Positions 33,001-36,000 of a stretch of 42,074 bases of DNA are shown piece by piece; positions within the stretch are counted from its first letter, which is position 1, and each line of letters begins with the position of its first letter. This DNA comes from a virus (taxonomy: Duplodnaviria; Heunggongvirae; Uroviricota; Caudoviricetes), in the IMG/VR virus record IMGVR_UViG_2913182230_000001, positions 1 through 42,074 of that record; one strand, written 5' to 3'. The position numbers are program-made.

Positions 33001-36000
33001 TCAGAAGTGGTGATGGAGGTTGGTTTCGCCGGTGGCGGCGCATTGCTGGATTTTGCCAGTAACCTGACGGCTACCAGCCTGCTCGGCCTGAGTCCTCAGC
33101 AGACGTATCAGGAGCTACTGGATCTGCAGGAAAGCCGTATCCCCTTCGATGTGGTAACCGGTAAACGGCTGTACAGCAACATGTTGATCCGGGCGCTGGA
33201 AGTGACGACGGACAAGACAACCGAAAACGTCCTGTCCGCCGTCCTCACCCTGAGGGAGGTCATTATCTCCCGGACACAGCAGATTACCGTCGCGGATAAA
33301 ACCAACATGAAGGAAGGGGCCAGCACGTCGGCGGTACAGAATAGCGGCAACAAAACCACAAAGCCTCCAGATACTTCACTGCTGAAAAGCATCACGGGTA
33401 ACGTGGCGTCATTACTGGGGGGCGGCTAATGACAATTCAGGAAATTCCGCTGACAGCGGACAACCAGCAGTTCAGCATCGTCCTGGGTGGTGTTACCTGG
33501 CGGATTAGCATCATATGGCGCGATCTGTACTGGATTATGGACCTGCAGAACGACAGAGGGGTGCCGGTAATCTCCGGTATTCCTCTCGTCACTGGTGCTG
33601 ACCTGCTGGCGCAGTACGCCTGTATGGGGCTTGGTTTTAAGCTGGTGGTGGTCTGTGATGACAACACACAGGATTACCCCACAAAAACTGACCTGGGCGG
33701 TCGCAGCCATTTACTGGTATCAACGGAGTAAGCATGTCACAGAACTGGATGAGACATTTCGAACTGCAGCTTGTGGACGAGAACGGTCAGGGAATTGAGC
33801 TAAGTGATTTTAAAGTCACCTTTACGATCGACTGGTTCAACATCAGCAGCGCGTCCCGGGTAGGGACTATCAAAATTTATAACCTCTCGGCAGATACTGT
33901 GAACCGAATCACCGGGCAGGAGTTTTCGAAAGTGCGTCTGATTGCGGGTTACGACGGTATCGCGCCGGAGGTGTCGGCAAGCGACGTCGGGATCGTGCGG
34001 GAGGTTGATGCGGCGGACGTGGGCCAGAGAGATGGCCGCAACTACGGACTGATTTTCAGCGGTGAAATTCGCTACTCGGTTACAGGAAAAGACAGTCCGG
34101 TTGATTCCTACGTCCTGATTCAGGCAGCAGATACTGATCTGGCTTTTGCCACCAGTATAACCTCACAGACGCTGGCTGCCGGTTACACGGTCGCTGATGT
34201 GAACCGTGCGCTGATGAAAGACTTCGAAGCCAAAGGTGCGACCGAAGGCCTGACGCCTGAAATGCCTGCTACTGTATTCCCCCGGGGGCGGGTGCTCTTT
34301 GGCATGACGCGGCATCTAATGGATAACGTAGCCGGGCAATGTGGCGCAACATGGCAATTCGTGGACGGTCAGCGCCAGATGGTGGCGACTAATGAATATG
34401 TTCACGAAGCGATTGTGCTCAACAGTGCTACCGGGCTTATTGGCATGCCGCAGCAGACCATCGGTAACGGCGTAAACGTCCGTGCGCTCATTAATCCGAA
34501 CATCCGGGTTAATGGGCTCATTCAACTGGATCAGGCTTCTGTATATCGCACCGCGTTGTCGAACAACGATATCGCTATGGCTGGTGGGCAGATCACCGAC
34601 CAGAACACGGACGGAAATATTACGCTCAGCGGCACCACATCACAGCCTGCCAGCATCGCAACGGATGGCGTTTATATTGTGCGCGGGATTATGTACACTG
34701 GCGACACAAGGGGCCAGGCGTGGTACATGGATATGATGTGCGAAGCGCGTGGCGCGGCGGATCTGTATACGCAATCGGCTTTGCAAAGGGGATGAGCAAT
34801 GAGGGGGATTATTTTTCTGTTAGCTGTCTTTTCTGCGTGCAGCGCGTGGGCGGATGGCTTCACGGTTAAATGCGGTGGCTACACTATGGTTGCAAACCAG
34901 GGCGAGTTATCGACAATCAACGGTGAAAGAGTTACCTCTCAAAAAATCACCGAACTGGGTACCAATGGTTTGAAAGTAGACATGGGGCTTATGCCTGCCA
35001 AAGACGGTAACAACTACGGCTTTGAATACATTCGTCGCCCTGGTACCGAAACGCGATTCCTTAATGTCCAGCTTCTGCAGAACAGCATGGATGCGCCTAA
35101 AATCATCGGATCATTCCCTTGTAAAAAAGTGGCTGGGTGAAGGTAACCTGAAATTCGTAACGCCTGAAAAACAACAAAATGTGCTCTAAAAACTGTTGTT
35201 TTTTGAGACGAGCGATTACACTGCACTGACTTTTTGATGGTGGATTGCCATCGATATGCTACTTCATTAAAGCCAGGAATAACTAAAACATGAGTTTAGC
35301 GCAGCCAAAATCAGGAGAACTGTTAGATCTTCTGACTCCTTCATTAACTAAGGGTGAAAACCTTCTGAGTGAGTTTGAAATCCATCGAATCATTCGTGAA
35401 GCGAAGAAACTACCTGAACGTTATCAGGGGCTATCAATTGAAGGCTTAGCTAAGCTTGTTCTTGGTGAAATAGATGAAGGATGTTCACTCTGTGAGCGGG
35501 GGTTGAGAATAGCGCCTAACGATCCAGTTTCTTTTTGTAACTATACGATTGCGCTGCGTAACTTAGGTTTGCACGCTCGCCAGTATGTGATGATTCAGAA
35601 AGCATCTGATTCACTTAATCCAACGATATTGGCTGAGGTTGCTACAATTTCTGCATACTGGGTTGATATCGATTTGCTTGAAAAGGTGATGCCGATGCTA
35701 ACTGCAATGGAAGTACCGCGCCCTGAATATATGGGCAAATGGTATGACACGCTCAATTATCTGCATACCCAAAAAGATCATGCTCAGGAGCTAAAAACTA
35801 TTGGGCGGCTCATGATGAACGTTGCAGAAAAGTACCGCGCTCGTCTTGCTGGCGCTCATGCTTTTTATGTAATGTCAGAACTTGATACGCTGTTCGTTGA
35901 AGTCAAAACAGACGATCCAGTGCTTCTTTCGCAGATGAATAATGCCTTGGCTGATGAGATTATTATTGCGGGGCTTGCGGATTCAGAATGCGTCGGATGC

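What the first reader, a model, noticed from the sequence alone, without database searches (positions are those of the whole stretch)
34799..35140. Secreted small protein, possibly a lipoprotein, embedded in the tail module: candidate superinfection-exclusion factor
The 113-aa product has a clear N-terminal signal peptide (MRGIIFLLAVFSACSAWA) with a cysteine placed for a lipobox, which tail structural proteins normally lack. Some lambdoid phages carry receptor-blocking lipoprotein genes such as cor among tail genes. It sits immediately upstream of the two-gene cassette and may belong to the same inserted block.
Basis: partly seen in the sequence, partly recalled or inferred. Interest (0 to 1): 0.5.

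Follow-up and report, generated by a model that had tools for sequence, protein, structure and literature searches.

The report
Exported accessory protein beside baseplate hub
A small gene wedged between two tail-tip genes of an E. coli prophage encodes a protein that is almost certainly sent to the space between the cell's two membranes, not built into the virus; it belongs to an unstudied family that may block rival phages, but its function is untested.

Summary
The ORF (34799-35140, +, 113 aa) is real and under purifying selection. Family-wide, the N-terminus is a signal-peptidase-I signal peptide: A-x-A is kept in 116-120 of 121 clusters, the supposed lipobox Cys14 in only 7. The mature 95-aa protein keeps two invariant cysteines and is predicted to be a small up-and-down beta-barrel.

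It is not a core tail part. Distant relatives, and the cryo-EM-solved Pam3 baseplate, have hub and spike genes adjacent. In 117 related loci with an insert there, the first gene always has a signal-like N-terminus (my heuristic): this family in 104, four unrelated exported or lipoprotein families in 13.

It is not part of the two-gene cassette. That block is 35143-36469 and assorts independently of the small gene.

The family is catalogued without function (phrog_3443; PGAP "STY1065/STY2022 family phage-derived protein").

Verdict:
- Exported accessory protein: well supported.
- Lipoprotein: not supported for the family, ambiguous for this allele.
- Superinfection exclusion: the most plausible function, but only inferred.
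- Interest: moderate.

The parts
34799..35140 (+). Small ORF, 113 aa: member of phrog_3443, PGAP 'STY1065/STY2022 family phage-derived protein'
   Evidence: homologs
34787..34792 (+). Shine-Dalgarno-like AGGGGA inside the last codons of the hub gene, 7 nt before the ATG. The hub stop lies 3 nt before the start, so the gene is packed into the late operon.
   Evidence: Read from the sequence
34799..34852 (+). Signal peptide, residues 1-18 (MRGIIFLLAVFSACSAWA). The predicted signal peptidase I site is AWA|DG. Cys14 sits in a weak lipobox (FSAC).
   Evidence: Column conservation: A16 116/121, A18 120/121, C14 7/121. Own heuristic.
34853..35137 (+). Mature protein: 95 aa, 10.3 kDa, pI 8.7. Predicted 7-8-stranded up-and-down beta-barrel with invariant Cys25 and Cys108 in the first and last strands.
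34765..34963 (+). Swappable 5' module: the last 10 hub codons, the signal peptide and the first ~37 mature residues. It is replaced in L111/L122, which share the 3' half and the cassette at 99% identity.
   Evidence: blastn breakpoints; allele classes
33734..34795 (+). Baseplate hub gene (phrog_196; weak E217_GP41), the left anchor of the variable region
35143..36469 (+). Separate low-GC cargo block (GC 0.44, GC3 0.38-0.41) holding the two-gene cassette: 35290-36021 (TPR-like, phrog_22649) and 36021-36449 (HEPN-like, phrog_5176). It is not part of the small gene's unit.
   Evidence: Breakpoints; assortment; composition; families
36470..36491 (+). Intrinsic-terminator-like hairpin (9 bp, 6 GC) plus a T-run just before the spike gene. 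It is the right anchor of the variable region. A similar hairpin is present in 112 of 117 loci that carry an insert, with differing stem and loop sequences.
36514..37266 (+). Central spike gene (gpV-like N-domain plus Apex motif). It directly follows the hub gene in relatives that lack the insert.

Best explanation
The gene encodes a Sec-exported precursor. Signal peptidase I most probably cuts it after AWA(18), releasing a soluble ~10 kDa periplasmic beta-barrel stabilised by a Cys25-Cys108 disulfide.

It is an accessory gene, not a virion part. It occupies the first position of a recombination hot spot between the baseplate hub and spike genes of a lambdoid-regulated, Pam3/E217-type contractile-tail prophage of E. 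coli. It is translated from the late tail transcript. Expression in the lysogen is possible but not shown.

My best guess at function: it acts in the cell envelope against phage entry, either as superinfection exclusion or by protecting progeny from wasteful adsorption. It would do so by binding something exposed in the periplasm, such as the tip of an incoming tail or the periplasmic face of a receptor. The variable N-terminal hairpin would tune specificity and the conserved C-terminal half would form the scaffold.

Status of each step:
- Shown: gene reality, signal-peptide conservation, accessory status, independence from the cassette.
- Inferred: cleavage site, disulfide, periplasmic location.
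- Speculative: exclusion function and target.
For: Export:
- The signal-like N-terminus is conserved in physico-chemistry but not in sequence. A-x-A is kept in 116-120 of 121 clusters. Two cysteines are invariant.
- Sources label relatives 'putative exported protein' or 'Secreted protein'.
- Some members are the C-terminal domain of 265-296 aa proteins with canonical lipoboxes LSGC, VSC or TGC.

Accessory status:
- Hub and spike genes abut in 15 of 132 loci, all of them the distant relatives (all loci with hub identity of about 45% or less, including Providencia phage PSTCR3).
- Hub and spike are also consecutive genes in Pam3, whose complete baseplate has six components and no such protein.
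- Only about 19 of the 154 phage records with a homologous hub carry the family.

Functional slot:
- In 117 of 117 loci with an insert, the first post-hub gene has a signal peptide or lipobox by my heuristic. It comes from five unrelated families.
- Three of these families also occur fused to one shared lipoprotein N-domain.

Selection and diversification:
- Strong purifying selection on conserved blocks.
- Seven allele classes among prophages whose hubs are at least 96% identical, with an intragenic swap of the N-terminal module.

Expression: the gene is tightly packed after the hub gene. The phage has a Q-type antiterminator, and a conserved terminator lies before the spike gene. This is the layout of lambda-type morons.

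The lysis cassette is elsewhere, at 17.9-18.8 kb.
Against: - There is no functional evidence of any kind, and no literature on the family.
- There is no sequence or significant structural similarity to any known exclusion protein.
- No sigma-70-like promoter was found upstream, so expression in the lysogen, where classical exclusion acts, is unproven.
- Allele classes do not co-vary with the tape-measure C-terminal type or with the spike type. That gives no support for a tail-tip target with allele-specific recognition.
- Divergent family members are ordinary chromosomal genes beside LysR regulators, outside prophages. The fold may therefore serve a host physiological role.
- The locus counts are not independent samples. 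80 of the loci are close relatives.
Confidence: 0.4

Rival explanations
1. This particular allele is an outer-membrane lipoprotein. Lgt and LspA would process it at FSA|C14. Ser at +2 would send it to the outer membrane, where it would mask a receptor from the periplasmic side, as T5 Llp or Cor do.
For: - FSAC fits the permissive PROSITE-type lipobox pattern (sequence).
- Cys14 is kept in all 24 loci of this allele class. A second class has LFSC.
- Some family members are fused to a true lipoprotein N-domain, and true lipoproteins replace the gene in other prophages.
Against: - The cysteine is missing from 114 of 121 clusters and from 5 of 7 allele classes, whereas A-x-A is nearly universal. 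Lipidation therefore cannot be essential to the family's function.
- Cys at position 14 with Phe at -3 is at or beyond the usual limits. From memory, the PROSITE rule asks for Cys at 15-35, and Leu dominates at -3.
- There is no similarity to Cor or Llp.
Confidence: 0.2
2. It is a lysogenic-conversion factor that benefits the host rather than blocking phages: a periplasmic binding or inhibitor protein. One example would be a lysozyme- or hydrolase-inhibitor-like barrel that protects the envelope.
For: - Chromosomal, non-prophage family members sit beside LysR regulators.
Against: - Pfam MliC does not match, and I could not see the PliC/MliC signature motifs as I remember them (not formally tested).
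- The gene is persistently linked to the plug-hub-spike module, even in marine phage contigs at about 30% identity. This argues for a phage-related role.
Confidence: 0.15
3. It is a late periplasmic helper of the phage's own cycle, for example one that modulates lysis timing or peptidoglycan hydrolases. It would act only during lytic growth.
For: The gene sits inside the late operon with no detectable promoter of its own. It is exported to the compartment where the endolysin and spanins act.
Against: - It lies far from the lysis cassette at 17.9-18.8 kb.
- It is dispensable in many relatives.
- It is replaced by unrelated exported proteins, and it shows allelic diversification typical of conflict genes.
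Confidence: 0.1
4. It is a minor virion or ejection protein. Its hydrophobic N-terminus would insert into the host membrane during injection rather than acting as a signal peptide.
For: It sits in the middle of the baseplate genes and is co-expressed with them. It stays associated with the plug-hub-spike module in distant phages.
Against: - It is absent from homologous functional phages and from the complete Pam3 baseplate structure.
- It has a conserved peptidase cleavage motif and a cysteine pair.
- It is interchangeable with proteins that have canonical lipoboxes, and it occurs fused to one.
- Chromosomal orphan homologs exist.
Confidence: 0.05

Closest known systems
Phage T4 Sp (spackle)
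   Same: A small protein with a cleavable signal peptide that works as a soluble periplasmic factor of a contractile-tail phage. It acts on the incoming tail tip by inhibiting the gp5 lysozyme (my own knowledge).
   Different: - No sequence relation.
- Sp is helical as I recall, whereas this protein is a beta-barrel.
- Sp is an early gene of a virulent phage and is not in the tail module.
- No link to the tape-measure C-terminal type was seen here.
Cor (phi80, N15, HK022, T1-like phages) and T5 Llp
   Same: Small envelope-targeted proteins encoded next to tail or receptor-binding genes. They block entry of the same and related phages (my own knowledge).
   Different: - Both are obligate lipoproteins acting on FhuA. 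This family is not lipidated as a rule.
- It sits at the hub-spike junction of a myovirus.
- It matches neither family by sequence, and nothing significant turned up in the viral or PDB structure searches.
Lambda-type morons in late operons (lom, bor; HK97 gp15)
   Same: An accessory gene inserted between structural genes of a Q-antiterminated late operon, with a terminator downstream. HK97 gp15 is an exclusion protein encoded within the tail genes (my own knowledge; review PMC3594210 listed, not read).
   Different: - No promoter of its own was detected.
- The terminator lies after the whole slot, not directly after this gene.
- gp15 is an inner-membrane protein.
MliC/PliC/PhiA periplasmic lysozyme inhibitors
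   Different: - No Pfam MliC match, and I could not see the signature motifs as I remember them.
- Avidins and designed barrels score higher, so only the generic fold is shared.

Membership tests
Sec / signal peptidase I secreted protein | N-terminal positive residue, a hydrophobic core of about 8-12 residues, and small residues at -3 and -1 (A-x-A) before the cleavage site | tested here: met
   MR + GIIFLLAVF + AWA|D in the window protein. A16 is kept in 116/121 and A18 in 120/121 clusters, and the core is hydrophobic in all. My own heuristic is positive in all 104 family loci. No dedicated predictor such as SignalP was available.
Bacterial lipoprotein (signal peptidase II substrate) | Lipobox [LVI][ASTVI][GAS]C with an invariant Cys at +1 | tested here: inconclusive
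   FSAC with Cys14 fits only the permissive pattern. The Cys is kept within this allele class (24/24 loci) but in only 7/121 clusters and 2/7 classes family-wide. So the feature is not met for the family and is ambiguous for this allele.
Cor / Llp receptor-blocking lipoproteins | Sequence membership in the family | tested here: not met
   Only phrog_3443 (unknown function) matches. No Pfam or NCBIfam hit. No significant BFVD or PDB Foldseek hit.
Cor / Llp receptor-blocking lipoproteins | Blocks adsorption or DNA entry through a defined outer-membrane receptor | not testable with these tools
   Needs expression plus adsorption and plating assays.
MliC/PliC lysozyme inhibitors | Match to the family profile (Pfam MliC, PF09864). 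The signature motifs SxSGAxY and YxxxTKG are recalled from memory. | tested here: not met
Moron (autonomous accessory unit in a late operon) | Own promoter upstream and a terminator downstream; absent from related genomes; deviant composition | tested here: inconclusive
   Absence from relatives: met. Intermediate GC3 of 0.52, against 0.59-0.63 for the upstream tail genes TMP to hub (spike and J are lower, 0.46-0.49): weakly met at best. A terminator exists but lies after the slot at 36470-36491. No promoter was detected.
Baseplate / virion structural protein | Present in all phages with the homologous baseplate and in the particle | tested here: not met
   Hub and spike genes abut in 15 loci and in PSTCR3. 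The Pam3 baseplate is complete with six proteins and none like this. Direct proteomics for this phage was not available.
phrog_3443 / PGAP 'STY1065/STY2022 family phage-derived protein' | Full-length profile match | tested here: met
   phrog_3443 E = 8.4e-48 over residues 2-112. In an E. coli chromosome 98.7% identical over this region, the gene at the same position carries the PGAP name (WP_001214055.1); it scores identically to the window protein with 100% identity over the mature region. The release-20 NCBIfam HMM library has no model for it.

The most novel reading that the evidence does not exclude
The hub-spike junction of SEN34-like temperate myophages is a dedicated, polymorphic 'envelope effector' locus.

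- Its first gene is always an exported protein.
- That protein is drawn from at least five unrelated families.
- Three of those families can be swapped onto a common lipoprotein anchor.

The STY1065-type beta-barrel would be a new kind of soluble periplasmic superinfection-exclusion protein. It would intercept the tail-tip complex or the DNA-entry step of incoming phages. Its swappable N-terminal hairpin would act as the specificity determinant.
Probability: 0.2. Interest if true: 0.65.

Novelty: new member of a known kind. Interest (0 to 1): 0.4.

Why it matters
Some part of this tail region matches in 353 of the 5,426 complete E. coli genomes searched, and the family occurs across Klebsiella, Salmonella, Citrobacter, Pantoea, Serratia and others. 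No member has ever been studied.

If it blocks phage entry, it would add a soluble periplasmic beta-barrel to the short list of exclusion mechanisms in Gram-negative bacteria. It would also matter for phage-therapy host-range prediction in Klebsiella and E. coli lysogens.

The always-exported first gene at the hub-spike junction, together with the domain shuffling onto a shared lipoprotein anchor, gives a compact comparative system. It offers five protein families and seven alleles on near-identical tails for asking what the envelope side of phage-phage competition looks like.

If instead the protein proves ordinary, it is simply one more moron-type cargo gene.

Tried and rejected
- **Known-family searches.** Pfam, NCBIfam and PADLOC gave nothing for the protein. 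A PDB sequence search with the family profile gave nothing. Foldseek against PDB and BFVD gave nothing significant. The afdb50 library was unavailable.
- **Replacement families.** Pfam, PHROG and NCBIfam on the alternative exported proteins gave no informative match.
- **Literature.** Searches on STY1065/STY2022 and neighbouring locus tags, and on exclusion genes in tail modules, found nothing on this family.
- **Virion proteomics.** The SEN34 paper has none. Klebsiella phage MMNM has virion proteomics but does not appear among the records carrying this gene, so it could not be used.
- **One block with the cassette.** Rejected on breakpoints and independent assortment.
- **Allele-specific inhibitor of the tape-measure C-terminal domain or the spike.** No co-variation was seen.
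- **Spanin or lysis gene.** The lysis cassette is 16 kb away.
- **Promoter upstream of the gene.** None was found by the consensus scan, and manual inspection was unconvincing.
- **Terminator directly after the gene.** The AT-rich hairpin at about 35165-35205 is not better than shuffled sequence.
- **Characterised marine phages carrying the divergent plug-hub version.** None are in the phage collection.
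Full report
**1. The observation**

ATG is at 34799, TGA at 35138-35140, and the product is 113 aa starting MRGIIFLLAVFSACSAWA. It starts 3 nt after the stop of the upstream 353-aa gene and has a GGGG(A) ribosome-binding site 7 nt upstream.

It is a genuine gene:
- It matches PHROG phrog_3443 (unknown function) at E = 8.4e-48.
- It has 396 homologous 90%-identity clusters in one clade and 68 in a second clade about 28% identical.
- An exhaustive profile search of 1.84 billion representatives found only 64 clusters at 50% identity, so the family is small and narrow.
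- Across allele classes, conserved blocks are 65-93% identical in protein while third codon positions are only 33-66% identical. That indicates purifying selection on old alleles.

**2. The setting**

The window is a lambdoid-regulated prophage next to proA. It carries:
- an integrase at 1459-2622;
- a CI-like repressor at 10194-10844;
- a Q-like antiterminator at 16513-17136;
- an endolysin and Rz at 17877-18787;
- one long plus-strand late operon.

The tail is of the minimal contractile type known from cyanophage Pam3 and Pseudomonas phage E217. The gene order is:
- tape measure, 30833-32842;
- Dit-like tube initiator, 32842-33429;
- Pam3-gp18-like plug, 33429-33731;
- hub, 33734-34795;
- the small ORF;
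- a two-gene cassette;
- gpV-like spike with Apex motif, 36514-37266;
- sheath initiator;
- baseplate J.

Some part of this 4.5-kb region matches in 353 of 5,426 complete E. coli genomes, and 32 of them cover at least 80% of it, at up to 98.7% identity. PGAP calls the product 'STY1065/STY2022 family phage-derived protein'. I found no paper on it.

**3. Signal peptide yes, lipoprotein mostly no**

I aligned 121 sequences:
- The N-terminal 18 residues vary freely in sequence. They always keep a K/R, a hydrophobic core, and A-x-A just before the mature [DNSG]G[FY]T start. A16 is kept in 116/121 and A18 in 120/121.
Most relatives have Phe, Ser or Tyr there.
- Two other cysteines, Cys25 and Cys108, are kept in 120/121. 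They are also kept in the distant clade, where C25 is invariant and C108 is at least 90% conserved.

This is the pattern of a signal-peptidase-I substrate that forms a periplasmic disulfide.

For this particular allele the question is not closed. FSAC fits the permissive lipobox pattern and is kept in all 24 loci of the allele class, and a second class has LFSC. But Cys at position 14 with Phe at -3 is marginal, and lipidation cannot be essential for a family that mostly lacks the cysteine.

Some relatives are the C-terminal domain of 265-296-aa proteins with textbook lipoboxes. This independently places the domain in the envelope.

**4. Fold**

AlphaFold2 on a 59-sequence alignment gave mean pLDDT 81.5, about 88 over the mature part. 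The model has a signal helix followed by 7-8 beta-strands in a meander.

So the fold is a generic 8-stranded soluble barrel, common among periplasmic binders and inhibitors. It does not name a function.

**5. Accessory, not structural**

I fetched 53 diverse genomic loci and 80 close viral loci through the hub protein and scored them together with the phage loci fetched earlier. Of 132 loci that contain both hub and spike:
- 15 have the two genes abutting or overlapping. These are all the distant ones (all loci with hub identity of about 45% or less): Photorhabdus, Xenorhabdus, Morganella, Burkholderiales and others, plus Providencia phage PSTCR3.
- 104 carry this family directly after the hub.
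- 13 carry something else there.

In Pam3, hub gp19 and spike gp20 are consecutive genes, and the cryo-EM baseplate is complete with six proteins. Only about 19 of the 154 phage records with a homologous hub carry the family. The gene is therefore an insertion into an ancestral hub-spike junction and is not needed to build this tail.

**6. A slot for exported proteins**

In the 13 loci without the family, the first post-hub gene is again envelope-targeted:
- a 241-246-aa lipoprotein (LTSC or STAC);
- a 153-158-aa protein with a signal peptide. Hafnia phage yong1 gp67 belongs here once its start is corrected;
- 374-379-aa lipoproteins;
- an 80-aa Thr-rich secreted protein.

Thus all 117 inserts begin with a gene whose product has a signal-like N-terminus. 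This rests on my own heuristic, and many loci are close relatives.

BLASTP shows a shared lipoprotein N-domain in three fusion proteins. Their C-terminal domains are, respectively, this barrel (E = 9e-14), the 153-aa protein (E = 9e-17) and the 241-aa lipoprotein's C-terminal part (E = 4e-59). Each of these also exists as a stand-alone exported first gene. None of the families has a known function.

Replacement by unrelated but equally exported proteins, plus domain shuffling on a membrane anchor, is what one expects of genes engaged in conflict at the cell envelope.

**7. Not one block with the cassette**

Comparison with loci that share the same small-gene allele but carry other cargo (L065, L068, L077) shows homology running to 35127-35142 and resuming at 36470. 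The cassette block is therefore 35143-36469, starting right after the small gene's stop.

Composition also differs: the cassette has GC3 of 0.38-0.41, the small gene 0.52, and the upstream tail genes (TMP to hub) 0.59-0.63.

The cassette occurs with five of the seven small-gene allele classes. The window's allele class occurs with the cassette in 9 of 24 loci. Some loci have the small gene followed directly by the spike region with no cargo (L110, L114, L125, L055).

**8. Allelic diversification**

Among prophages whose hubs are at least 96% identical, the small protein falls into seven classes at 90% identity. Identity to the window's mature protein ranges from 61% to 100%.

L111 and L122 share the 3' half of the gene, the cassette and the downstream genes with the window at 99%. 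They have a different segment at 34765-34963. That segment covers the last ten hub codons, the signal peptide and the first ~37 mature residues. The variable part maps to the first two strands and following loop. Three blocks are nearly invariant: INGE.VTSQK, MGLMPA.DGNNYGF.Y and FLNVQLLQNSMDAP.IIGSFPCKK.

Allele class does not track the tape-measure C-terminal type or the spike type. I therefore have no evidence that those tail parts are its partner.

**9. Expression**

The tight packing after the hub means the gene is on the late tail transcript. No sigma-70-like promoter was found on the plus strand between 33500 and 37000.

A strong hairpin plus T-run sits at 36470-36491 before the spike gene. 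A similar hairpin is found in 112 of 117 insert-bearing loci, including minimal hub-small-spike ones, with differing stem and loop sequences. It is also found in a few loci without an insert.

In a Q-antiterminated operon such a terminator would stop only transcripts that start inside the slot. This is the classical moron arrangement, but it does not prove lysogenic expression of this gene.

**10. Wider distribution**

Divergent members (about 25-40% identity) occur in marine and other phage contigs with the same tail module, but there they lie between plug and hub. Others are ordinary chromosomal genes beside LysR-type regulators, with no phage genes nearby.

The first pattern argues for a lasting link to the central baseplate genes. 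The second warns that the fold may have a host function.

**11. Conclusion**

Well supported (about 0.85): an exported, non-structural accessory protein of an uncharacterised family. It is probably soluble in the periplasm, with one disulfide.

Function is inferred only. An anti-phage role at the envelope is the best guess (about 0.4). It rests on position, on replacement by other exported proteins, on diversification, and on analogy with T4 Sp, Cor/Llp and HK97 gp15.

The rivals cannot be excluded without experiments: a lipoprotein version of the same role for this allele, a host-benefit conversion factor, a late lysis helper, and a minor virion protein.

The finding is real and modestly interesting. 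The broader pattern at the hub-spike junction is the more notable result.

Noticed in passing
window 34741-36491; loci L007, L008, L022, L025, L027, L044, L095, L098, L099, L113, L121, L128, L143: The hub-spike junction is a recombination hot spot bounded by the hub 3' end and a conserved hairpin. Wherever it holds an insert, the first gene has a signal-like or lipobox N-terminus (my heuristic), drawn from at least five unrelated families. All of these families are of unknown function.
   Followed up: yes
L022 6086-7210, L025 6068-7207, P0194, L024 6099-6989, L032 6075-6941: One lipoprotein N-terminal domain (~190 aa, motif YKKRPGW...DDC...FYA.YHEYG) is fused to three different C-terminal domains. 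Each of these domains also exists as a stand-alone exported first gene at the same position (BLASTP E from 9e-14 to 4e-59).
   Followed up: partly
window 35143-36469 (ORFs 35290-36021 and 36021-36449): A low-GC two-gene cargo block: a TPR-like 243-aa protein (phrog_22649) and a 142-aa protein with HEPN-like motifs (weak PADLOC HEPN_IX hit, E = 0.0094). It is probably a defence or toxin-antitoxin pair. Diverged versions occupy the same slot in other loci (L098, L027, L077, L123, YP3).
   Followed up: partly
window 32183-32842 (tape measure residues 451-669) against loci L064-L143: The C-terminal third of the tape-measure protein is polymorphic, with bit-score ratios of about 0.99, 0.85 and 0.2-0.27, among prophages whose N-terminal tape measure, Dit, plug and hub are at least 90% alike. 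Relatives annotate this region as a lytic transglycosylase domain. Pfam did not detect one here.
   Followed up: partly
window 36470-36491 and the equivalent sites in 112 loci: A terminator-like GC hairpin immediately upstream of the spike gene, in the middle of the late operon. It is conserved with differing stem and loop sequences. It is also present in at least one locus without any insert (L045).
   Followed up: partly
L146 4001-4339, L150 4001-4369, L144 3668-4009, L145 2294-2635: Divergent family members are single chromosomal genes outside prophages. Two of them lie divergently beside LysR-type regulators, near tsx or fimbrial genes. They may be domesticated copies or the ancestral host gene.
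   Followed up: partly
L147 371-709, L148 234-572, L149 4001-4330: In marine-metagenome and other phage contigs with the same tail module, the family member lies between plug and hub instead of after the hub. Providencia phage PSTCR3 has an unrelated 157-aa secreted protein at that same plug-hub position (L009 2963-3436).
   Followed up: partly
L002 5109-5342 (SEN34_20), L004 4097-4330 (QBP27692.1), L007 4622-5032 (yong1 gp67), L008 4532-4774: Deposited annotations call several of these genes from internal start codons, which removes the signal peptide. The 80-aa secreted ORF of phage EKP1 is not annotated at all.
   Followed up: yes
L008 (Elizabethkingia phage EKP1), L014 (Chryseobacterium sp. 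18061 assembly): Records attributed to Flavobacteriia hosts carry this enterobacterial-type tail module. In L014 the hub is 92% identical to the window's. This suggests contamination or host misassignment.
   Followed up: no
L005 4347-4733 (Citrobacter phage Omnitron), L002 5364-5780 (SEN34_21), L003 5327-5773 (Mulock_021): The cargo genes after the small gene are themselves often envelope proteins: a second secreted 128-aa protein in Omnitron, and N-terminally anchored proteins in SEN34 and Mulock. The SEN34_21 domain recurs as a secreted 107-aa protein in EKP1.
   Followed up: partly
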